A stretch of 63,208 nucleotides of DNA, counting the filler, from Stramenopiles sp. TOSAG23-2 (taxonomy: Eukaryota): the NCBI GenBank assembly GCA_900128395.1. It is 12 parts of 12 records of this genome, joined end to end, with 100 filler letters (N's around TTAATTAATTAA, not from the genome) between each part and the next. Parts side by side here need not be neighbours in the genome. Positions count along the whole stretch, not along the records: positions 11,290 to 16,829 come from LT650647.1; 11 more parts are not named here. One strand, written 5' to 3'. Below are positions 1,744-44,978 of the stretch, piece by piece (position 1 is the first letter of the stretch; each line of letters begins with the position of its first letter). Below the pieces are notes generated by a model that saw only the letters and a program-made list of their open reading frames with translations, was not told the origin of the DNA and made no database searches. Both the position numbers and the translations under genes were made by a program.

Positions 1744-4359
1744 TTAATGTTTTTTTTTTACAAATGGTGGACGGATTTCAATTTTTTTTTCACCAATAAT
1801 TTTAGGATCTGTGATGATACTACTTCCTGCACTACTTAAACTTAGTTGATGGTCATTTTGCATTAAAATCAAACTGCTATCACTAGTGCGTTTGCTTTTA
1901 CCTTTCTTATTCTTGGGCATTTTTCTTGTCAATGAAGCCAGTGGAGATGATTTTGGGCGAACATGATACTTGTATCTGCTTCCATTTTTACTATGTACAT
2001 TTGATATTGTTTTATTGTTTTTATTCAACATTCTTTTTAAGGATGATCGTGACGATGGTCTTGACGATGATCTTTTCATTGGTGCCGTGCTCGATAAAAC
2101 TTTTTTATCCCCCTTTTTTATTGGTGTGAACTTTGTTTGGAATTTAGCATTTTTACCACCATTCTTCATGCCTGGTTGTGAATTTGGTCTGGGTGTCGAT
2201 TTTTTGCTATTAGGGCGACTGGTGCTTTGTGAGGTATTAGGCCTTGATGAACTTGTGCTGCTTGCGCCACCTCTACTGCTTGGTCGGCTGTTTGATGATG
2301 AGGTTGATGGCCGTGAAGCTGAGTTCATGCTGTTGCTTCTACTTTTACCTCTAGATCGTTTGGACGACAGTGCCGTTTGAATTCTAATTGGGGGGCTATT
2401 GAAATGGGGGTCTACAATTTTATAAAAATTTTCACCGAAGCATCTACTACCATCTGTTTTTGAACATAATGGCCAACTTTTAGTGCCATCAGGGGATGGA
2501 TGTTTTGGCCCGCCACTAACATTATAATGTTGGCATTTATCCCCTTGATTACATCCACCGCAATCTGGGCATCTGCCGACACATTCGCCACGAGGAAAAA
2601 TGTGGTTGTGTTTTTTGCAAAGTCCAACATGTCTTTTGAATAGATTTCGCACAGATTTTGGTAAAAGCACATGTGCTTTAGGTTTGTGAAGAGAGATGCA
2701 CTTCTTGCCTTTGCATCTTGAATGCATCGGACCTGCACCACACCATAAACAAAAAATATTGCCTAATCGCATATTATTAAAATATGCTATCGCGGGTTGA
2801 ACCTCTACTGGCTCATTTTCACTATTCTCTTCGACTTCTTCGCCAACATCTAATACGTTGAAACCTTGAAATGGTCTAATTAATAAATACGGATCGTTTT
2901 GATTCTGTTGCATTCTTCTATAATATGAAGAAGAATCGCTGTTGATGCTGCTTGCATTATTTGTTTTACTCAATAAATGACTACCACCAATGCTACTTGT
3001 ATTACTTTTGCTTTCATCAATACTTATGCCTAATTTAGAGTTAAAGTTATTTACGCTATGATGATCCACGTTGTAATTAACAAATGCATGCTTATCATGT
3101 AAATTTACCAATCTTGCTTCGGAAGTTGTTGCGCCAATTTTACTATCCATTGTAAAACCTATGGTTGAATCATCGTTCGATAATGAGCTTAAATTAGCTG
3201 TAGAGAGTATCAAAATTCCATCTGTTGATGAGAGATCATTCGATTCACTTGTTGGTAGGCTCGAAAACCCAACTTTATCGTTAAAAGCATTTAACGTGTC
3301 TAGACTCCGGTGTGCTATATAATCATGTTCAACATCATCGATCGACATTGAAGTTGTAATTATTCTACTTTGTGGTATTACGCGACTTTTTGATGAGGAT
3401 GATGATTTACTACTTAAATATGGTGAAAAGTTGGCAGCTTTTGCACTTTTTCGTTTCTTTGTTTTTTTTAGACTTTTGTCCTTATTAGTACTGCCTTTAA
3501 TTAAATGTATATTTGCTCCAAGACTGCTACCGCCACTTAAACTTCCCATATTTAATGAGGAGGACGTGTTCAATAGGTCATTCGGTTTCTTTTTTCTCTT
3601 CCTCCTCTTCAACGAGCTGAAAGTTTCTGGTCTATATTTTTTCTTTTGTTTCAAAACCGGTATCCAACGTCTGCTTTCTACGTTACTTTTACGCATTATT
3701 GCCACTTTCTTGATACATTCTTCATTCGTACACTCGGTTATGCCACCAAATAGTTCTAGTTTACACAATGGACATATATACGTTATACCCCTTTTATAAT
3801 CAAATTTGTCCAATAAACTGTGAAACTTGTTAAAATATTCGGAACGAGTGATGATTTTGTTTTTATAATTATTTTCAAGAATGCCGATTTCTTCTATAAA
3901 GTACAAAGCGCGTTTCTGTAGGTATCTTGGATATCGTGAAGGTAAAGTAGATCCTAATCGAATGTCTATGTCATAATGCATGGACGTTAAGTCACCAATA
4001 TCTGCTTCCTCATTGGGTTTCTCTACTTGAAAAGTGCTTGTTAACTTATTGAAATATAGTAGCTCGTCGGTCTCCTCGATATAAACCTCTTCCCAGCCAT
4101 TTGGTACTTGATATGGAATATATGACAGGCCACCATGGTCTTTTCGATAGCTGTAACGTCTAGGATCGAAATCTTTTCTAACTTGTCTCCTCTCTATTAA
4201 TTTGGGCGTTGTATATGGACGATGATGCAAGTCACATCCATAGGTAAATATAAAAGGATCTGTAACTCTGTATTTATATTTCATACGTGGCCCACGACGA
4301 GGAGGCGAATGGTCATCATTGTCGATAGCCCCACCGGGGGGAGATAATGCGGAGGACAT
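1744..4359 (-). CDS. Hypothetical protein with WW domain, Cys/His clusters and Ser/Lys-rich low complexity
   Basis: 871-aa ORF. VPNGWEEVYIEETDELLYFNKLTSTFQVEKP is WW-like; several CxxC clusters follow. Confidence 0.65.
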   Translation of the reverse strand: MSSALSPPGGAIDNDDHSPPRRGPRMKYKYRVTDPFIFTYGCDLHHRPYTTPKLIERRQVRKDFDPRRYSYRKDHGGLSYIPYQVPNGWEEVYIEETDELLYFNKLTSTFQVEKPNEEADIGDLTSMHYDIDIRLGSTLPSRYPRYLQKRALYFIEEIGILENNYKNKIITRSEYFNKFHSLLDKFDYKRGITYICPLCKLELFGGITECTNEECIKKVAIMRKSNVESRRWIPVLKQKKKYRPETFSSLKRRKRKKKPNDLLNTSSSLNMGSLSGGSSLGANIHLIKGSTNKDKSLKKTKKRKSAKAANFSPYLSSKSSSSSKSRVIPQSRIITTSMSIDDVEHDYIAHRSLDTLNAFNDKVGFSSLPTSESNDLSSTDGILILSTANLSSLSNDDSTIGFTMDSKIGATTSEARLVNLHDKHAFVNYNVDHHSVNNFNSKLGISIDESKSNTSSIGGSHLLSKTNNASSINSDSSSYYRRMQQNQNDPYLLIRPFQGFNVLDVGEEVEENSENEPVEVQPAIAYFNNMRLGNIFCLWCGAGPMHSRCKGKKCISLHKPKAHVLLPKSVRNLFKRHVGLCKKHNHIFPRGECVGRCPDCGGCNQGDKCQHYNVSGGPKHPSPDGTKSWPLCSKTDGSRCFGENFYKIVDPHFNSPPIRIQTALSSKRSRGKSRSNSMNSASRPSTSSSNSRPSSRGGASSTSSSRPNTSQSTSRPNSKKSTPRPNSQPGMKNGGKNAKFQTKFTPIKKGDKKVLSSTAPMKRSSSRPSSRSSLKRMLNKNNKTISNVHSKNGSRYKYHVRPKSSPLASLTRKMPKNKKGKSKRTSDSSLILMQNDHQLSLSSAGSSIITDPKIIGEKKIEIRPPFVKKKH

Positions 4360-11289: not shown

Positions 11290-11344
11290 GGGAGGGGGCG
11301 TCGTGTTTTTCAAGGTGGGCCATGTTGATCGCAAACTATTTGTA
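11290..11344. repeat. Dispersed repeat end, probable DNA-transposon terminus followed by TA; second copy at 39458-39515
   Basis: GGGCGTCGTGTTTTT.CA.GGTGG.CCATGTTGATCGCAAACTATTTG|TA begins two unrelated contigs, and similarity stops after the TA. Confidence 0.65.
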
Positions 11345-11520
11345 ATATAAATAGAGTATATAAACTAAAAATAAATATAGAATAGCAAACAACACAAAAC
11401 CAAGATTCAATCCATCGTCGGTTCCATCGTGAACTAGCTCATCCAATTGCAGTTGATTTATACGTTACCAGTAATAAATCCTTGTCGTCAACACTTTTAT
11501 TGCTTTGCATTATGGTATTT

Positions 11521-12692
11521 TTCATGCATAACGTTTTACCAATAGTAGTATCAATTATTGTTTGTGTTCTATCGTTGTTCGTCACGGCGGAACCAAACTT
11601 CCCAAGTGACTGGACGGCAAATGTAGAACAAAACAGTATTACTTGGACTGGAGGTTCGTATAATGCTACGTCGGGGCAAGCGTGTTGTGCAATAAAGGCT
11701 CCACAGTGTCAGGTAAAGGCCCTGGGCGAATCTGTAACTGAGTATGTCGATGGCAGTATGAACGCCTCTCTTTTGACCAACGGCGTAGCAGGCGTGTTGA
11801 GCCTGTATGAAAAGAAAAAAGTGATGCAAGTTGTGCGGTCCAAAACCGGCAAAGGGTGGCATTGTCAGACCTACTGCAAAGTATCCAAATCCGACTGGGT
11901 GTCACCCTTGGCGTTTTTAAAGGGCGCAAAAGACATGGGCTCCGTAGAGATGAACGGCAAAACACTCGAAAAGTACGTGGCTTACGATGGCATCGGGCCA
12001 AAAATTCATATGGAGCGCTTGACCTACTACGTAGATCAGAGCAACCCGAAACAGAGTATTCCGTACGAGGAAGTGGACCAGTTAATACCGTTCAATGGAC
12101 CTGAAATATCTGAAGCACATATTGTTTACAACGGCTTTAAAGCAGGGAAACCTGACCCGAGTCTCTTCATAGTTGATAACTTGGACTCTTGTGAAAAGGA
12201 CTCAAAATCGGACTGTGATGACGATGTCCGAGGCAGTGCCCTTCGCTTCCTTGCGTCGGTGTCCGATAAGAAAACTGTTTTGTACCACAGTGCCAAAGCT
12301 GCTGGGAGAAAAGTCTCCCCACAAAAAGTAACAAATGCCCACAAAAGCAAGTATAAGTGGCCCACAGACTGGTCCAGTGTTCAGTCGATTGACGTGGTGC
12401 AGAACCAAGGGGGATACGAAATTGATGGGGGACAAGAGGCATGCTGCAAAGCTGACTATTTCACCCAATGTCAAGTACAGTCGCAATATCGTATTGCTAG
12501 TTCATACCATGATGTCACACACAATCGATCTCGGATTGAGGATCCAGTGATGGGAGTTACTGTGAGTGATTATAATGCATTGAAATTGATGACCATTCAC
12601 AATAATGGGACTGACGACGTCTGCTACGCATATTGCCCGATCGATCCTAGTGACACCATCGGAACTGGCCCTGGCGAATTTCTTCCTGCCGA
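11521..12692 (+). CDS. Secreted protein with two internal Cys-containing repeats (ependymin/EPDR-like, tentative); 3' end broken by an inverted duplication
   Basis: Signal peptide after MHNVLP. Repeats PNFPSDWTA...ACC..PQCQV and YKWPTDWSS...ACC..TQCQV. After 12692 the ORF reads the antisense of its own 12310-12437. Confidence 0.6.
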
Positions 12693-12820
12693 TCTTGTCC
12701 CCCATCAATTTCGTATCCCCCCTGGTTCTGCACCACGTCAATCGACTGAACACTGGACCAGTCTGTGGGCCACGTATACTTGCTTTTGTGGGCATTTGTT
12801 ACTTTTTGTGGGGAGACTTT
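12693..12820 (-). repeat. Inverted duplication of 12310-12437 (about 128 bp, 2 substitutions)
   Basis: Reverse complement matches AAAGTCTCCCCACAAAAAG...GGGGGACAAGA, with differences CAA/CAG and AAG/ACG. Confidence 0.9.
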
Positions 12821-12863
12821 ACAGTTCAAATTAGGGTTTTGATGTTTTGATGAGTACCTGGAG

Positions 12864-13241
12864 AGTAGTATATAATAGATAAATTCCTCTTTTAACCTAA
12901 GAACAACTCTATCAATTTAGCAGGTGAATATGCTTAGGAAACGCAAAAAAGTGTAAATATACCTTATTTTTTAAGGTTTTTCTATGGCATTTTGAGGTCC
13001 AATTGAAAGAAAAAAGAGAAAGAGAAAAAGAGGGGGTAAAAGAGTGGAGAGAGAGTGGAGATGATATATGTAGGTAAAAATGAGTGAGAGAATAACGAAG
13101 ATTGTGACGATACAAATTGAGGTCCAATTTGAGAGTGAAATCAATGTAGGTTAAAAATATTTTGGTTTGTGATGTTGGGTGGTGAAATTCAATCGCGGTT
13201 AAAAATTTTTTCATTTGTGATGTTGGGTGGTAGAAATTCAA
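12864..13241 (+). repeat. Left TIR of the Maverick element, with ~49-bp tandem subrepeats at the inner end (extending to ~13274)
   Basis: Reverse complement of 16011-16389 with about 5 substitutions and 1 indel. Subrepeat GGTTAAAAATTTTTTCATTTGTGATGTTGGGTGGTAGAAATTCAATCGC. Confidence 0.93.
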
Positions 13242-13336
13242 TCGCGGTTAAAAATTTTTTCATTTGTGATGTTGATAATTCATAAGTTTATTTAAGGTTT
13301 TTCTGGCTTCACAAACAATAATACTGTGTAATGATT

Positions 13337-13456
13337 GTAATTACTAGCTTGGTTGTCACGAAAATCTTTAGACATTTCAGCCAGTGCTAAAATGTTTTGC
13401 GATTGCTGATAATTTTGTGTTTCCGAAACAATAGCACCATTAGCAGTTAGCGAAAT
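13337..13456 (-). pseudogene. Inverted internal fragment of a Polinton-type major capsid protein
   Basis: ISLTANGAIVSETQNYQQSQNILALAEMSKDFRDNQASNY resembles, from recall, the Maverick MCP segment 'lNGqeie...gqattilnLleYsdDf...q.ln'. Confidence 0.5.
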
Positions 13457-13460
13457 TCCG

Positions 13461-13736
13461 GCAGGTGCTCGTAAAGCTAGAGCAGGATTACAACAGTTAA
13501 GTAAAAAGGCAGAAGAGAAATTAGCTGGATTATTGGGAAAAAAGACTAGTAAAAAAATTAGCAAAAAAGCCAAGAAAATGTTAAAAGATTTAGTAAAAGA
13601 AAATAAACCAAAAATAAAATTACCGAAAAAAGTAAAAAAAAATTTAACAAAAACAGAACAACAACAATTAAGTAAAGGAGGTGAAAAAATAATAAGTAAT
13701 TTGCTATATGGGCGTGGATTAAAAAGAATGGCTTGA
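13461..13736 (+). pseudogene. 5'-truncated basic core-like (pVII/pX-like) protein of the Polinton
   Basis: Lys-rich reading frame AGARKARAGLQQLSKK...IISNLLYGRGLKRMA*. LYGR|G fits the adenain cleavage consensus (M/I/L)xGx|G. Lies directly upstream of the MCP start. Confidence 0.55.
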
Positions 13737-13772
13737 TTATTTATATTTTTTATCTAATGATTAAATATAGTA

Positions 13773-13943
13773 ATGTCATTAAAACACCCAATGTTAGATG
13801 TGTTTAGAACTCCAATGGAAGATAATTCCATAGAAAGTATGGAATGGATACCAATAGAACCTGATAGTTTTCAAGCAGGAACCACCTTAAACCATATCTT
13901 TTATTTTAATGTGACGCTTAAGTCTCATCGCGAACAGTGTTGA
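13773..13943 (+). pseudogene. N-terminal fragment of a Polinton major capsid protein (not in the ORF track, 56 aa)
   Basis: MSLKHPMLDVFRTPMEDNSIESMEWIPIEPDSFQAGTTLN matches the recalled Maverick MCP N-terminus pattern L.vf..P..DnSIes.e...yeP...LN. The frame ends soon after. Confidence 0.65.
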
Positions 13944-14498
13944 TATAATTTTTCTCATTGTATTTCTATAAGATTAACTCTTTTCATTTTATTTTGGACG
14001 GATGATGAATGAGGAAATTTCTTCGTATAACATTTTGCTTGTTGCGTCATACTAATTTTTTCTTTTCTGGAAAAGTATTATAATTTTTACCTCATAATTT
14101 TGTTTAGATTTTTTGGATCACTTGCTCCCCTTACCACGATGTGTTTTTTAATTTTAAAGCACTTTCTTTTTTACAAATGTCCTTATTTATTTTAAAAAAA
14201 CATATTTTTTCACACTAAACACTTCTTCTAAAATTTTGAACCAGTTTCTATAAGGTTTTTTAAGTCTTAAAAAATATTTCGGCAAATGACCTCCACCCAT
14301 TTTTAGCTACTATAAGGATATCATTATACTCTTCTAGAAGCTTCATCTTCAACATTTTTGCTATTTTATTTTACATAAAAAACTAAAAAATAATTTACAT
14401 AGAAAACATACATACCTTCGGTAGAAAAAAGAAGTTTTGTTATATATGTTCAAAACAATATTGTTAAAGTGTTTCTATGTATTAATTAGGTGTAGACG

Positions 14499-14957
14499 AT
14501 GACACGAGCGTCACGGTTCCAGTTAGCATTGCTAAAATATAAAATATCATTACTTAAAAAAAAGGTTCCAAAGCATGTGTTGAAAAAGTATAAAGAGAAA
14601 AAGTATAAAAAGGTGTGGATAGAGCGTCAGCTTAGAAAGATGCCAAAGAGAATTTTAATATTACATTTAAAAATAAAAAAAGCCATTAACTTAAGAGATT
14701 TTTTGAATAAATATTTAGAAGAATGTGCGAAAATTGAAGAAGCCATAAACTTTTTAGAATGGAAAAAAAAAAATTTATATTTTTATTTATATTCATGTGC
14801 TGTGTGGCAAGCTGATGTGTGGAGCGTAGCGGAAATGAAATGGCAACAACTACAAAACTCGTTTACAAAATATTATGTAGCAAATACTGGTTATGTTAGC
14901 AATATTGGACAAAAAACAAATGTGTTTTTTTGTCACGAGCATTATGTGGATGAGTGA
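14499..14957 (+). CDS. Basic hypothetical protein inside the Maverick element
   Basis: 152-aa Lys-rich ORF with a C-terminal C...CHEH cluster; no family recognised. Confidence 0.45.
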   Translation: MTRASRFQLALLKYKISLLKKKVPKHVLKKYKEKKYKKVWIERQLRKMPKRILILHLKIKKAINLRDFLNKYLEECAKIEEAINFLEWKKKNLYFYLYSCAVWQADVWSVAEMKWQQLQNSFTKYYVANTGYVSNIGQKTNVFFCHEHYVDE

Positions 14958-15108
14958 CATATGGTATAAATCGTAAAGATTTATTGTGAATATTAAAATT
15001 GATAATCACCCGATTATGAATTTTACATTAGATAGGAACAAAAATAATATAGATGTATCGCAAATAATAAGAATTTCTTAACCCCCCGATTATGAATTTT
15101 TTTTATTT

Positions 15109-15297
15109 TTAAACATCGTTTTCGGCTACTGTTTTTTGTGCTATCTCTTTTAACTTTTTAGCCATACACTCACTTCCAGTTAAACAACAAATTAAAGTAT
15201 GAATAATACCGTTTCCCTTCGTTCTCTTGACTAAACTTAATGCTTCGCTTACTAAAAGTAATCCAAATCCTACATATGTTCCCATTTCGTAATCCAT
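15109..15297 (-). CDS. Small predicted membrane protein of the viral element
   Basis: MDYEMGTYVGFGLLLVSEALSLVKRTKGNGIIHTL: hydrophobic helix plus an SE.L.....K.NGI.H motif recalled from small dsDNA-virus proteins. Directly downstream of pPolB. Confidence 0.55.
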   Translation of the reverse strand: MDYEMGTYVGFGLLLVSEALSLVKRTKGNGIIHTLICCLTGSECMAKKLKEIAQKTVAENDV

Positions 15298-15346
15298 TAT
15301 TATAATATAATGAATGATTTTTATTTTTGTCTTCATTCAAACATAC

Positions 15347-16009
15347 TTATAATTTAATTACAGGTTTTGTCTGGATATGTTTTTTATTGCTGTTATAATC
15401 AATTACTCGTTTATCATTTTTCCAATTTAATTCAAATCTTTTGCGATTGGGAATAATATATATACCATCGTTTTTCTTTACTTTGAACAATGATTTCATA
15501 TTTACTTCATTTGTTTTATCACTAAAACCCGCTTTCATATTACCTTGGTCATATCCATTTTGAACCATATGTTTCATTGTTTCAAAATTAATTGTTTCTT
15601 TTACCACCGCATCTAACTGATACCCTTTTGCTTTCGTTTTGTATTTTTTTTTGTTATCTTTTGTAGTAATTTCATATGAATACATTTTTGGTGCTATACC
15701 CACAAATTGTGTAATCATACCTTTACATTTTTCTAACTCATCCGTTAAACCTCCTAAGTTTGATTGAATTTTTATTTTCCCGTTCTTAACAATAATTTCC
15801 TTACCTATATATTTATCATTTGTTTTAAATTTAAATATACAACTATCTGTGTCACACATCAAACAATTTTCATATCCTACTTTACGAAGTAAGCGATGTA
15901 ATAAAATTCTAGAATATGCTGTCGTAAAAGCAGCTATAGGCAAACACGAATTAGCTCCTTGCTTGTTATCGTTTAAATCTAAGTAACTTAATAAATAACA
16001 ATTACTAAT
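15347..16009 (-). pseudogene. pPolB: Protein-primed family B DNA polymerase, C-terminal fragment
   Basis: IAAFTTAYSR, CDTDS (motif C), LGGLTDEL, FVGIAPKMYSY, KAKGY and DKRV. The frame is open to the inner edge of the right TIR; exonuclease and motifs A/B are absent. Confidence 0.9.
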
Positions 16010-16010
16010 A

Positions 16011-16389
16011 TTGAATTTCTACCACCCAACATCACAAACCAAAAAATTTTTAACCGCGATTGAATTTCTACCACCCAACACCACAAACCAAAATATTTTT
16101 AACCTACATTGATTTCACTCTCAAATTGGACCTCAATTTGTATCGTCACAATCTTCGTTATTCTCTCGCCCATTTTTACCTACATATATCATCTCCACTC
16201 TCTCTCCACTCTTTTACTCCCTCTTTTTCTCTTTCTCTTTTTTCTTTCAATTGGACCTCAAAATGCCATAGAAAAACCTTAAAAAATAAGGTATATTTAC
16301 ACTTTTTTGCGTTTCCTAAGCATATTCACCTGCTAAATTGATAGAGTTGTTCTTAGGTTAAAAGAGGAATTTATCTATTATATACTACT
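16011..16389 (-). repeat. Right TIR of the Maverick element
   Basis: Inverted copy of 12864-13241 ending ...TATATACTACT, followed by CTGGAG. Confidence 0.93.
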
Positions 16390-16929
16390 CTGGAGTACAA
16401 TGTTTGTTAGAGCTTTGATGCTGGCCAGGCTGGCCTGGCTGGCTGTGGGCTGGTGGGCTGGCTGGCTGGCCAGCTGGGCCAGCTGGAGAATGCCAGAATG
16501 CCAGGAATGCCAGGAATTAATGCCAGAAAATGCAGCACAACAAATCAATGCCAATATTGTATATCTAAAACAAAAGACCCAAAACAAAATAAGTTAATTG
16601 TAAATGCATATACATTCCAAGACACTCACTCTTTTTTATATTCTTTCACACATAGACTTTGAAAGGATACTTTCATAGTTTATTACCTTTTTTGTATATA
16701 TATACCTCTATTACAATTTTAAAGAAGAAAAAAAATCATTAATAATTAATAATAGTTAATTTTCAACATCATCCATTTCTACAATTATATATCCATATAT
16801 ATTTTGATTTTTAGTTCATTCCTATTTTGNNNNNNNNNNNNNNNNNNNNNNNNNNNNNNNNNNNNNNNNNNNNTTAATTAATTAANNNNNNNNNNNNNNN
16901 NNNNNNNNNNNNNNNNNNNNNNNNNNNNN

Positions 16930-29114: not shown

Positions 29115-32100
29115 ATGTTTAGTTTAATTCGCTTCTTATTGATTTTAGTGTTTTGTTTTTTAAGTGTAGCTAATTCGCTGGAAAATTCAGCTCAAGTAGC
29201 TACTCCAGGCAAGGCTACTAATACTGAAGAACTAACTGAGAAACTTGCAGCTTATGAAATTAAACCAGTTAAAGATCCATACGCCGAATGGATATCATAT
29301 GATGTACCTGAAATTTTAAAAACACAACTACCAGATTCTAAGGGAGTGGTGAAAGACATAATTAGTCGGAAATGCACTTTAGAAAATGATGAAAAAGTGT
29401 TTCCTTCAGAAGCTTGTTTCAAAAAATGTTCTGAACCAGATAAAAAGTTATCAAAACATGATAAAAGACAGAATGAAAAAATAAAATTAGACAACGAGAA
29501 CAAAAGAAAGATGTGTGAGCGAGCAAAGTGTAAACTTGGATTCGTATGCTATTTTCAAGCATCAAGATTAGTGAAAGACGCCATCTTTGACATTCTTGGC
29601 TCTGGTGTCTGTCGTTTAATAGATAATGTTTTCACTGCAGATAATAATGACGTCAGCGAATCTGTTGTGACTAGCTGTAAGCGCCAAACTAATTATCGAA
29701 TGAGTGACGAATGGTACGGGAAAGGTAAGCGTGCTTATGTATTGGGAAATGGTGATGTCCTAGCTGCTGAAACTTGGGAAAAAGCACAACAGATGTTTCA
29801 CGAATTAGGTATGGGAATTGAACAAGATTTAGAAGAAGAAAAACGAAAAACGAAAAAAGTCTTTTGCAATTCAGAAAACGAGCCGACCAAGGACAAGTTG
29901 GACAAATTCAAAAAGGAAATTGAATCTTGGACCAAATACGTTTATAAAAGAATTTATGGCGATATCTTACAAAATGTGCAATATCGTTATAAAAACGATG
30001 AAAATCAGCGTAAAAAGGCAACGACTGCTGCTGAAAAAACAAGTAAAATGATTGCGACACTTTACTATGCGTTGATGTCATCTACTATTGATATAGTTCA
30101 AGAGGGCAGTAAGCTAGTGAAATATATACCTAAGAATAGTCGCAATTGGTGTGATTTGACAATGGACGTTCAAACGGCTTCAAGATACCATTTGCTATCT
30201 TCTAATTCAATGTTGTGCCATCACTGGTGTAAACAACCGAAAAATTGGGAAGCAATGATTAAGCACGTGTCGTTAAATATTGATATTTTTTCAAATTGTT
30301 TTTATGAAAACTTCCAAGACAAGAAGCCGTGCAAAAAGGAAAATTTTGAAAAATCAATAAATGATTTGCAAGAGTATGCGAATGAAATCAATTCTCTATT
30401 TCAGAATGCAAAATTTAACGAAATCAAGTTGAACATAGGAGACAAATTGAGGCCCGAAGCGAAAGCTAACGAGAAGGTTGTATTCAACAAAGATACAAAA
30501 ATGTCTACAAAAATGATATCCTCACGGTCAAAAGATAGTGTTGGAGGTATTGAGTTTACGTTGCCAGAAAATGCAAATAAATACAAAGGGTTGCAGGTTA
30601 CATTTGTTGATTTGTTTAAAAATCAAGCCAACTCTCATGAACATCGGTTTCAATTGACATTAAAAGAAGACCAATCTGTCGACTTTTTTGAATTTAGAGA
30701 AAGCCCAATAACAAATAAAAATATAAAATGGAAACACGGGGATAAGTTTAAATTATCATTCGATGCAAACAATATTTTTCACATTTTTTACAATGACGTA
30801 AAAGTTGAGACATTTAACCGGCCGGCATTATCATTTCCGTATTTAATTAAAGTGTCAGATATGAATAATGCAATAACAGATTTAAAAATGAAATTTGTGA
30901 AGAAAAAATCTAGGCATATTATCACTGGAAATGGTATGAAAGCGAATAGCAACGAAATGGCATTTTTACAAATTTCAGAAAATAAACAAGCATTAGCTGC
31001 AACTGGCGCCCAAGGCCCAAAAGGAGACAAAGGTGTAACCGGCCCCGAAGGAAAACAAGGCAAAAAAGGTTCTACTGGCCCCCAAGGAAACAAAGGTAAC
31101 AGTGGTAGAAACGGGGAAAAAGGTGCAACTGGCGCCCAAGGCAACAAAGGTAATCAAGGCGAAAGTGGTAAGAAAGGTGTAACTGGTACAGAGGGTAAAA
31201 TGGGTAACAAAGGTGATAAGGGCGCAGAAGGCAAAAGAGGTGAGAGGGGTATCACTGGCGCAGAAGGAAAAAAAGGTAATGACGGCACCGGTTTAAAATT
31301 GAAAGAATTTGCTGTAGGTAATAACTATACAAAAGGTGATTATGTATTTGCAAAATCAAGTAAGGATAAACATGATTCGATGTACGTAGCAGAAAAATCA
31401 TTCGTAGCAAGTAAATTACCATATTTGGATTTAAACTCTGGCAATTGGGTGGAATTTCGTGCACCACGCGGAGCAGAGGGAGCAAAGGGTGCTACCGGTA
31501 TAGAGGGAAAACAAGGCGAAATGGGTGGAAGAGGTGCAACAGGCGTTCGCGGGGAAGTAGGTGACAAGGGCGCCACTGGTATTCGAGGATTAAAAGGTGA
31601 TAAAGGGGCGACAGGTGCTCCTGGTAAATCAATCGCTGGACCCAAAGGTATCACTGGAAATGAGGGTAAAAAAGGTGTGAAAGGTCAACAAGGTGTGAAA
31701 GGTGTGAAAGGTCAACAAGGTATAAAAGGAAAGCAAGGAGTAAAAGGGCCAGAGGGAAAGCAAGGACCTATGAGAACGGATGAATTCTTTGTATGTAAAA
31801 AGAAAAGTCTATTTGTAGATGACATTAAACAAACCAATGAAAGCACCTGGTTACAAGCAAATCGCGAGAAAGTGGACTTGTGGTACAACAATATGTTTAA
31901 AAAACTTGAATCTATGAAAAAAGATTTATGTGATCTTGAATCTGTGAACGATATAAATGATATGTTCAATAAAACAAACATGCATAAAAATATACCGGAA
32001 AAACCAAAAGCGGATATTGGTACAATCATTCAACCAACGTCAGAGAAAAACAAAATTGTAAATGAAACTTTCCAAAAGCAAGAGCAAGATGCCGCAACAA

Positions 32101-33734
32101 AAGATATAGCTATACATAGAAAAATTAAAATTTTAAACACGATCATAGACAACTCCAACAATCCCGAGGAGATTAAATTGGCACTTTCAAAGGAAGCTCT
32201 TTATGTGAAAAAATTACATAAAGCTATGGACGAAATGACAAAAGATGGTAAAGAATCGGCGTTACAATTGAAACAGGTGTACGATGCTATTAATCCAATA
32301 GCAGAAGCAAAATCGAAAATTGCAGAATTGGAAGGGAATATGTCATCTGTAAAAACAGTTGTTGAAACCTTCAAAAACGAACATGAGAATGCATTACGAT
32401 CCGTTGATGGATTTAGCAATCAGGTTTCATCTGTTAAAAACCAATTAACAACCGTTATTGAAAAAATGATCACAATTGAAAACAAAACCGATCAACGAGA
32501 CGAGAGAGATGCAGAGAAGATGAGAAAAGAACAAGCAGATCCTACGAAAAGCAATGTACAAGATTTGATGGAAAAAGTTCAAACGATAGAGGGAAAACTA
32601 GAAGCTGAAGCAGCAGCCGCTGGAGTTGATACTAATAACAATAAAATGCCACTGGTATGTAGAGAGCCCATTGAGCTATATTCAAATTGCGATTTTAGCG
32701 GCAATAATAAAGAATCGCATTTATTATCAATGTCGAAGCAACAAGCAACATCCGCCCGGAACTATTTGACAAACATGAAAGATGTTCATGGGAATATTGA
32801 TGTAAACTTAGAGTCAGATGGTGGTGTAATCCAATACATTAAGACTGCCACTGTTCATGGTGTAAAGATACCAAATGGTTGCGCGACAACATTATATTAC
32901 AAAACGAAACAACTAAGTGGCAGTGCTTCGGAAAAGACTTTGTACAATGGAAGACGAATTGTTGGCCCACAAAACATTTGCATAAGATATAATCCAAAAA
33001 AAGTATTAGCAGCTGTGAAAATTGACGATATTGCAACTGTCACAAATCTAGCATCCAGCGTCGAAAATCTGGAGAAAAAAGTTACAGTTTTGTTACGAAG
33101 TGGCAAGAATAGGAGATCATTGTTGTCAATGCGTTTCACACATGGTGTTTTTCAGGGTAGTAATGCAGCAGAAGGAACAGGTATTGTTACAAGTTCACAA
33201 CATATTGCGAGTGCAATAAAAATGGCATTTTTACAAATTTCAGAAAATAAACAAGTATTAGCTGCAACTGGCGCCCAAAGCCCAAAAGGAGACAAAGGTG
33301 TAACCGGCCCCGAAACCGTTGTACTAGATTCTTTAAAAGATAACCTAAAGAAAAAAATTCAAGAGGTATACAAGGAAGAGACATCATTTGAAAATAATGT
33401 TGATTTAACACTGGGAGCTCCAAGTACATTTGAGCAAAATGAGTTAAAATACCACGAGCAATGGAAGCTGGACGAATTTACACTAAATCAATGCGCAAGT
33501 GCTAGAGATAATTGTGACATGGCAAATGAAACGGCAAAAGAGGTATTGGCAAGTAAACTTGCTTTATCGAGGGCTAATTCACCAACGCAAAAGCACTGTA
33601 AAATAAAAGAAAATAAGGATAAAAAATACCGTTCGAAATGTTTTTCGAATATAGAGTATGTAACCGATACGAAAACCATTAGGAAAGAGAAAATTAAGCA
33701 ATTAAGAGAATGCCTTGAGCAAGATTACTGCACG
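29115..33734 (+). CDS. Large secreted collagen-repeat/coiled-coil protein (3'-truncated)
   Basis: Signal peptide, Cys-rich N-terminal region, two Gly-X-Y tracts (about 31005-31290 and 31465-31770) and a coiled coil. Confidence 0.8.

Positions 33735-39829: not shown

Positions 39830-44978
<5,149 letters not shown>

What the first reader, a model, noticed from the sequence alone, without database searches (positions are those of the whole stretch)
12858..16395. Miniature Maverick/Polinton endogenous virus with both ends and a perfect 6-bp TSD
Seen: termini AGTAGT...ACTACT, ~378-bp TIRs about 98% identical, identical CTGGAG on both flanks, and a pPolB fragment. Known: AG...CT termini, long TIRs and 6-bp TSDs are hallmarks of integrase-encoding Mavericks/Polintons, normally 15-25 kb. 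Inference: this 3.5-kb copy lacks integrase, ATPase and protease but keeps the cis ends needed for protein-primed replication and integration. It may be a defective or satellite element mobilised by a full-length helper in this protist. The TIR mismatches and the TSD argue that the insertion itself is real.
Basis: partly seen in the sequence, partly recalled or inferred. Interest (0 to 1): 0.8.

Follow-up and report, generated by a model that had tools for sequence, protein, structure and literature searches.

The report
Scrambled remnant of integrated Polinton virus
A small DNA virus once inserted itself into a marine protist's chromosome, and both ends of the insertion are intact, but what lies between them is a short patchwork of broken, partly flipped viral genes, so it looks like a dead remnant or an amplification artefact and not a working mini-virus.

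Summary
Observation confirmed. The element spans 12864-16389 (3,526 bp), with 379/380-nt TIRs 98.2% alike and CTGGAG on both flanks. It holds the last 221 aa of a pPolB 90% identical to a full-length 1,861-aa protein.

The interior is not one clean deletion. It also holds two major-capsid pieces, one inverted and moved upstream, and a core-protein tail, so at least 4 junctions. The host flank next to it is scrambled in the same way.

No helper of this lineage, no second short copy and no empty site were found in the incomplete assembly; one other 127-nt TIR stub exists. No listed contig from three other runs crosses an internal junction.

The integration is real and the satellite idea is unsupported. 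Odds: about 0.5 rearranged in the cell after integration, 0.33 shortened by whole-genome amplification, 0.1 defective genome integrated with a helper's enzymes. Truncated TIR-flanked endogenous virophages are already described (PMC8547959). The scan had not noted this sequence on other DNA.

The parts
12858..12863 (+). left copy of the 6-bp target-site duplication CTGGAG
12864..13242 (+). left TIR, 379 nt; its inner part is a 48-49-nt tandem unit that runs on to about 13274 (2 full units and the start of a third)
13275..13327 (.). about 50-nt linker of unknown origin; at least one junction lies here; best match is 14 nt to the TIR (E 0.009)
13328..13456 (-). internal piece of the major capsid gene (aa 97-139 of P0025, 91% identical), inverted and lying upstream of the gene's own start
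13457..13736 (+). 5'-truncated lysine-rich core-type protein, the gene that precedes the capsid in related viruses; 42% over 83 columns to the C2383 homologue; the junction lies between 13457 and 13496
13773..13886 (+). first 38 codons of the major capsid gene (95% to P0022), then cut
13887..14495 (.). unassigned AT-rich stretch; 14040-14406 matches a contig of run X13 with 5 differences, so that part has close relatives elsewhere
14499..14957 (+). 152-aa lysine-rich ORF of unknown function, 80% to P0021; missing from the X13 relative (707-nt skip)
15109..15336 (-). 75-aa hydrophobic ORF just downstream of pPolB; no family found
15347..16012 (-). C-terminal 221 aa of the protein-primed DNA polymerase B; the first 1,640 codons (about 4.9 kb) are absent and the cut end abuts the right TIR
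16010..16389 (-). right TIR, 380 nt, broken inside its second tandem unit
16390..16395 (+). right copy of the TSD
11386..12693 (+). host gene (ependymin-like by a weak Atlas lead), cut at 12693; its native continuation is on contig C7050 and in run X4
12693..12820 (-). 128-nt inverted copy of 12310-12437 of the host gene (98.4%)
12821..12857 (.). 37-nt left target flank; shares the motif TTTGATG with the first 45 nt of the right flank (about 0.01 expected), which fits one interrupted site
16396..16829 (.). right host flank: a dispersed CTGG-rich host repeat, then 16562-16826 matching C658:489-752 at 94%

Best explanation
A Polinton/Maverick-type virus integrated here at full or near-full length and left a 6-bp duplication. 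The ends and TSD are shown; the integrase is inferred from the TSD. After integration the locus went through serial template switches or microhomology-mediated repair in the living cell lineage (inferred). These removed most of the viral interior, at least 4.9 kb of pPolB and about 80% of the capsid gene, with no integrase, ATPase, protease or penton left, and flipped short pieces (shown). The neighbouring host genes were deleted and flipped in the same way (shown for run X1). The result is a dead relic. It cannot replicate, package or integrate itself, and nothing shows that it has moved since.
For: Run X1 (probably the source, so not independent) tiles the interior with two unbranched contigs, 13245-15468 and 15444-16070, at depth 18.4 and 14.5. 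Flanks are at 23.3 and 11.6 and the collapsed TIR at 37.5. None of its 5 listed loose ends leads into the missing viral genes (10 records laid, 8 shown). The missing parts were not found in the assembly with P0001, P0002 or P0025. At least 6 junctions in about 4 kb has Poisson P of 4e-8 to 4e-6 at published MDA chimera rates of 1 per 22 or 10 kb (PMC1855051). Other polinton-like capsid modules in the same assembly are intact and colinear (C2383, C6681). A second insertion is also reduced, to a 127-nt TIR stub. The TIRs differ at 7 columns, which suggests time in the chromosome. Contigs around this locus differ structurally from one another at 92-94% identity. TIR-flanked truncated virophages of 5-15 kb occur in Illumina/PacBio assemblies of cultured Cafeteria (PMC8547959).
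Against: No listed contig from X2, X4 or X13 crosses an internal junction. X2 contigs leave the match at about 13886 and 16014, exactly at two of the junctions (many pieces not shown). Inversion with deletion between segments under 10 kb apart, with short microhomology, is the typical MDA chimera (PMC1855051). All identified gene pieces are free of stops and frameshifts, as expected of an intact provirus cut up in a tube. The Poisson figure assumes independent events and ignores that the locus was picked after the fact.
Confidence: 0.5

Rival explanations
1. The cell held a full-length provirus at this site. Multiple-displacement amplification of one cell made a multi-junction chimera that dominated the locus, so the ends and TSD are real but the 3.5-kb length is an artefact.
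For: The best-matching runs have only 8-9 Mb of contigs with very uneven depth, which suggests single-cell amplification (inferred; library not on record). The junction pattern fits MDA: 85% of chimeras are inverted with a deletion, mostly under 10 kb apart (PMC1855051). About 5 nt of overlap at the pPolB/TIR junction is inferred from the X2 match end, and there is 4 nt at the C2935 stub. The host gene is intact in X4 and on C7050 but scrambled in X1. 12 of 40 other contigs sampled by number carry near-identical duplications of 40 nt or more (20 in 212 kb).
Against: No unrearranged template was seen in X1 or the assembly. Junction density is far above published rates. 18 of the 20 background duplications are direct, which MDA rarely makes at short range (11 of 475 chimeras, PMC1855051). 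Other viral modules assembled intact.
Confidence: 0.33
2. The short form arose before integration, as a defective genome made by template switching of the viral polymerase. A helper's enzymes then replicated and integrated it.
For: Both ends are complete and the TSD is perfect. Two junctions sit at the inner edges of the TIRs. Insect Polintons lacking polB appear to have amplified (10.1101/2025.02.07.637071), and an N-type family name, Polinton-1N1_DR, appears in PMC9341505.
Against: There is one copy only. The other TIR end is joined to an unrelated dispersed repeat. No helper pPolB, close capsid or Polinton integrase was found; the only rve hit is an LTR-retrotransposon pol. The TIRs are not homogenised. 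It does not explain the scrambled host flank. The assembly is incomplete, so absence is weak evidence.
Confidence: 0.1
3. The assembler stitched pieces of several copies or cells together through the TIR repeat.
For: The contig is a mosaic on its left: X1 leaves the window's sequence at 12432, while X4 covers 11397-12693. Short-read assemblies handle such elements badly (PMC10120064). The 380-nt TIR breaks the X1 contigs, so pairing of flanks with the interior is not read-spanned here.
Against: An independent assembly of X1 gives the same interior and both TIR-flank joints. The matching TSD and the motif shared by both flanks would be chance under mis-pairing.
Confidence: 0.07

Closest known systems
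Maverick/Polinton elements (polintoviruses)
   Same: Several-hundred-nt TIRs and a 6-bp TSD (e.g. 584-bp TIR and 6-bp TSD in Anolis, PMC3014272), pPolB, and a double-jelly-roll capsid gene (P0025 hits PF21738).
   Different: 3.5 kb against 15-25 kb (PMC6431247); no integrase, ATPase or protease found; pPolB and capsid are fragments; the internal order is scrambled. The closest full-length pPolB (1,861 aa) is longer than the more distant P0004 and P0005 (1,298 and 1,392 aa).
Truncated EMALEs (endogenous mavirus-like elements) of Cafeteria burkhardae, PMC8547959
   Same: Shortened endogenous pPolB/integrase-type viruses still flanked by TIRs, in a marine protist; 3 of 33 complete elements.
   Different: Those are virophages of 5-15 kb; no inversions are mentioned in the passages read. 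This one is shorter and has a Polinton-type capsid.
Polinton remnants at C. elegans eri-6/7 (10.1101/2024.01.15.575659)
   Same: TIR plus pPolB-end remnants tied to inversions and deletions of the adjacent host gene.
   Different: Those are confirmed across many strains; here one cell, unconfirmed, and both TIRs plus the TSD are kept.
MDA chimeras (Lasken and Stockwell 2007, PMC1855051)
   Same: Inversion with intervening deletion, local segments, short microhomology.
   Different: Published rate is 1 per 10-22 kb; here at least 6 junctions in about 4 kb with no parental form seen.
Polinton-type capsid modules on C2383 and C6681 of the same assembly
   Same: Same order of core-type protein and capsid gene on C2383; homologous proteins.
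   Different: Only 28-29% capsid identity to this lineage and no TIR match, so a different virus and an unlikely helper.

Membership tests
Maverick/Polinton | long terminal inverted repeats | tested here: met
   379/380 nt, 98.2%
Maverick/Polinton | 5-6-bp target-site duplication | tested here: met
   CTGGAG on both sides. Caveat: AG precedes AGTAGT at all 3 ends found, so the true end could be 2 nt longer.
Maverick/Polinton | protein-primed DNA polymerase B | tested here: met
   As a fragment only: 221 aa, 90% to P0001, which hits PF03175 at E 4.5e-26
Maverick/Polinton | retroviral-like (rve) integrase, part of the definition in PMC5499653 | tested here: not met
   None recognised among the element's ORFs scanned (5, 23; the four right-TIR ORFs mirror left-TIR ones and were not scanned). 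The only rve hit in the assembly is an LTR pol.
Maverick/Polinton | the parent virus encodes an integrase | not testable with these tools
   The DNA of the contigs that encode P0001, P0022 and P0025 could not be fetched; scans found no related locus
Maverick/Polinton | double-jelly-roll major capsid protein | tested here: met
   As two fragments, about 82 of about 426 aa
Maverick/Polinton | packaging ATPase, cysteine protease, penton | tested here: not met
   No Pfam hit; no hit better than E 0.19 of the C2383/C6681 penton or proteases among 142 element peptides
Maverick/Polinton | 15-25 kb length | tested here: not met
   3,526 bp
Non-autonomous (helper-mobilised) derivative | several insertions with the same internal structure and different TSDs | tested here: not met
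   1 copy; the second TIR end is a stub with a different interior; the assembly is incomplete
Non-autonomous (helper-mobilised) derivative | autonomous partner with matching TIRs in the same genome | tested here: inconclusive
   None found, but the assembly has 9,146 contigs and the searches score only top candidates
MDA chimera | junctions private to one amplified sample | tested here: inconclusive
   Seen only in X1 among 4 runs laid, but coverage in the other three is low and patchy
MDA chimera | unrearranged parent present in the same sample | tested here: inconclusive
   Not seen in X1 contigs; contigs drop rare variants and raw reads were not available

The most novel reading that the evidence does not exclude
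The 3.5-kb molecule is a defective genome that a polintovirus made by template switching of its own polymerase, and that a helper's enzymes then replicated and integrated. It would be a defective-interfering-type mini-Polinton in an uncultured marine protist, with viral ends that also act as hot spots for scrambling neighbouring host genes. Weak hints: both TIR-adjacent junctions sit in the tandem units; a second copy is cut within its TIR; all 11 other close capsid relatives examined (65% or more to P0025) are partial, and one with non-capsid sequence on both sides recurs on 4 public contigs from JGI and ENA. That sample is biased towards fragments and may be one dataset filed several times.
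Probability: 0.1. Interest if true: 0.65.

Novelty: new member of a known kind. Interest (0 to 1): 0.3.

Why it matters
As it stands it gives one solid but ordinary fact: this marine virus lineage (1,861-aa pPolB; relatives in seawater runs) integrates into a protist chromosome with long TIRs and a 6-bp TSD. That links an environmental virus to a host and defines its ends. It is also a warning: intact ends and a perfect TSD do not prove that the length between them is biological. If the junctions recur in unamplified DNA, the locus becomes a compact case of how such proviruses are destroyed and how they damage host genes. If several copies with the same interior turn up, it becomes a helper-dependent mini-Polinton worth a study.

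Tried and rejected
Looking for the parent's DNA: scans of viral contigs with P0001, P0025, P0029 and a TIR pattern and of JGI metagenome contigs with the pPolB piece and a TIR pattern found nothing. These tools may leave out records close to this genome.

Empty site: only the window's own junction matched exactly, with 4 two-mismatch hits against 3 for the control pattern; no joint skipping the element appeared. The thin cover there in X2, X4 and X13 is no evidence either way.

More copies: of 65 hits to the terminal 20-mer at up to 3 mismatches (control 110), the 3 exact hits are the known ends. The one-mismatch hit on C2958 does not extend and was rejected. The 48-nt match on C2317 (85%) lies in an otherwise host-like contig and was not resolved.

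Helpers rejected: the PF03175 hit on C2453 lies in a cellular family B polymerase (read as Pol delta from recall). The rve hit on C6140 is an LTR pol. The three A32 ATPase hits (C2422, C2965, C1829) show no TIR match.

PDB and Pfam searches with the pPolB piece alone gave nothing. The Atlas gave no usable lead for the 75-aa ORF. A two-sequence profile of distant capsids missed the inverted piece; closer relatives found it. No structure or complex prediction was run, because no claim depended on one.
Full report
Setting. The window is a chain of contigs of about 5.5 kb separated by N runs. The finding lies in one 5,540-nt contig, window 11290-16829, which is G000:C3649. G000 has 32.8 Mb in 9,146 contigs. 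The 20 runs listed as holding part of the contig are mostly marine or seawater; the best one, X1, holds 74% of the words and has only 8 Mb of contigs. I infer a single-cell amplified protist and treat X1 as the probable source, not as independent support. Other notes of this scan call the host MAST-4-like; I did not test that.

Observation. The element is 12864-16389, 3,526 bp. The TIRs are 379 and 380 nt with 6 substitutions and 1 indel, and CTGGAG stands on both flanks. A 6/6 match has a chance of about 2.8e-4. The 37 nt left of the site and the first 45 nt right of it share a 7-nt motif expected about 0.01 times, which fits one interrupted sequence. The interior is 28% GC against 45% and 34% in the flanks. 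The pPolB piece is aa 1641-1861 of P0001, 199 of 221 identical. P0001 is 1,861 aa, hits PF03175 and a PHROG endonuclease at aa 1298-1356, and lies on a 13.5-kb ENA contig. AG precedes AGTAGT at all three ends found. So either the integrase prefers CT..AG targets or the free end is 2 nt longer; two sites cannot settle this.

Anatomy. Window 13773-13886 is the first 38 codons of the major capsid gene (95% to P0022). Window 13456-13328, on the opposite strand and upstream, is aa 97-139 of P0025 (91%). P0025 hits the double-jelly-roll family PF21738. Between the two pieces lies the tail of the lysine-rich protein that precedes the capsid on C2383 (42% over 83 columns). The order is: left TIR, linker, inverted capsid piece, core tail, capsid start, unassigned stretch, two small ORFs, pPolB tail, right TIR. 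That needs at least 4 junctions, two of them inverting. At least 4.9 kb of pPolB and about 80% of the capsid gene are gone. No integrase, ATPase, protease or penton was recognised: 0 Pfam hits among 23 ORFs, and one sub-threshold hit among 5 element ORFs.

The host flank. The host gene at 11386-12693 continues natively on C7050 and in run X4. In the window it turns at 12693 into an inverted 128-nt copy of itself, then at 12820 into the 37-nt target flank. In X1 the piece starting at 12432 is preceded by sequence from C3594:888-917, whose native continuation leads to a phospholipase D gene. C7050 and C3594 share 331 columns at 93%, so these pieces are probably about 5 kb apart natively (inference across haplotypes). 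The process therefore acted on the chromosomal locus, virus and host DNA alike. This is the main argument against a satellite that was shortened before it integrated.

Copies and helpers. A DNA search of the assembly with the element gave 7 matches: 3 to itself, 2 to a 127-nt TIR end on C2935 with one difference and a different flank, and 2 to a 48-nt stretch on C2317. X1 also holds the C2935 joint. That stub joins a dispersed host repeat through 4 shared nt. P0001 and P0002 match only this contig; P0004 matches nothing. P0025 finds two capsids at 28-29% and one fragment at 25% besides this contig. The only rve hit is an LTR pol. No empty site was found. All of these are lower bounds in an incomplete assembly.

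Other samples. Four runs were laid, all as contigs. X1 tiles 12432-16826 except part of the left TIR, which collapses onto the right one. Its interior contigs are unbranched and none of its listed loose ends enters the missing genes (10 records laid, 8 listed). X2 and X13 hold both host sequence and close viral relatives. X2 contigs stop matching at about 13886 and 16014, at two of the junctions; the first is only 87% alike, so divergence could also end that match. An X13 contig skips 707 nt (14407-15113) that an X2 contig partly covers, so the family varies in nature. No listed piece from X2, X4 or X13 crosses an internal junction; 275 pieces were not shown.

Real or made in the tube. For an amplification chimera: the pattern matches Lasken and Stockwell (85% inverted with deletion, mostly under 10 kb, 2-21-nt pairing; PMC1855051), the gene pieces have no stops, the junctions are private to X1 so far, and 12 of 40 contigs sampled by number carry near-identical duplications (2 inverted, 18 direct in 212 kb). 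For a cell-borne event: no parent form is visible, at least 6 junctions in 4 kb is improbable at published rates (P 4e-8 to 4e-6; this assumes independence and a locus not picked after the fact), other viral modules are colinear and intact, the second copy is also cut, and the TIRs have diverged. I put it at 0.5 cell-borne, 0.33 amplification, 0.1 helper-integrated defective genome and 0.07 misassembly.

Relatives. Of 544 capsid relatives at E 0.001, 150 were listed. Among the 14 proteins I inspected, all 11 that are 65% or more identical to P0025 are partial, several with non-capsid extensions. P0029, P0177 and P0178 share the same two ends on 4 contigs from JGI and ENA. Clustering at 50% hides full-length members, many of these contigs are under 2 kb, and the three may come from one dataset. 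I count this as a hint only.

Comparison with what is known. Polintons are 15-25 kb and by definition encode pPolB and an rve integrase (PMC6431247, PMC5499653). This copy fails that test as an autonomous member, but it derives from a virus that works like one. Three TIR-flanked truncated virophages of 5-15 kb are described in Cafeteria (PMC8547959). Polinton remnants with host inversions are described in C. elegans (10.1101/2024.01.15.575659). polB-less Polintons that amplified are reported in insects (10.1101/2025.02.07.637071). PMC10120064 warns that apparently degraded protist copies are often assembly artefacts. My searches listed no description of a scrambled mini-Polinton under 5 kb with both TIRs and a TSD; the library lacks most subscription papers, and I did not see the 2006-2007 founding papers. 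The AG...CT terminal rule is recalled, not checked in a call.

What I saw of each paper: passages plus section 7 of PMC10120064; passages plus section 10 of PMC8547959; passages only of PMC1855051, PMC5960468, PMC3014272, PMC6431247, PMC5499653, PMC11296320, PMC9341505, 10.1101/2024.01.15.575659, 10.1101/2025.02.07.637071 and 10.1101/2024.03.18.585575. I read no supplements; Supplementary file 1 of PMC8547959 lists TSDs and may bear on the size comparison.

Verdict. The insertion is real and the remnant is dead. Its 3.5-kb length is unconfirmed and the satellite reading is unsupported. It is a new member of a known kind; interest 0.3.

Noticed in passing
L009 (G000:C2935):4371-4500: A second integration end of the same family: 127 nt of TIR with one difference, 4 nt after a host stop codon, joined through 4 shared nt to a dispersed, TA-rich repeat found on many contigs.
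   Followed up: partly
window 12858-12869, 16384-16395 and L009:4367-4378: AG precedes the AGTAGT terminus at all three ends, and the TSD begins with CT and ends with AG: a possible target preference, or a 2-nt longer free end.
   Followed up: partly
L017 (G000:C2383):3507-7242 and L018 (G000:C6681): Two intact Polinton-type capsid modules (putative penton and core protein on C2383; capsid, two small basic proteins and protease on both), only 28-29% identical to this lineage's capsid. C2383 also has a 617-aa ORF of unknown kind upstream.
   Followed up: partly
L059-L098 (40 contigs of G000): 18 near-identical direct duplications of 55-382 nt, mostly tandem, on 10 of 40 contigs, and 2 inverted ones; whether these are host biology or library artefacts is open.
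   Followed up: partly
L054 (C3594), L055 (C658), L023 (C7050): These contigs share blocks at 92-94% identity but branch into different genes, which suggests an assembly of divergent strains with structural differences at this locus.
   Followed up: partly
window 30955-31775 and 33220-33335; 40241-44867: Two contigs with long 9-nt-period, collagen-like repeats; the first has a 95-nt 98% duplicate of its start 2.3 kb downstream, the second a 150-nt tandem duplicate.
   Followed up: no
L009:527-1441 and 2202-3896: A divergent pair of paralogous host genes (70% nucleotide identity) with no Pfam hit for the longer one, next to the TIR stub.
   Followed up: partly
proteins P0023, P0029, P0043 (public collections): Capsid fragments of this lineage fused to unrelated sequence; P0029's two ends recur on 4 contigs.
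   Followed up: partly
window 11290-11344: A 55-60-nt repeat at the contig start occurs on more than 30 places in the assembly and probably causes many contig breaks.
   Followed up: no
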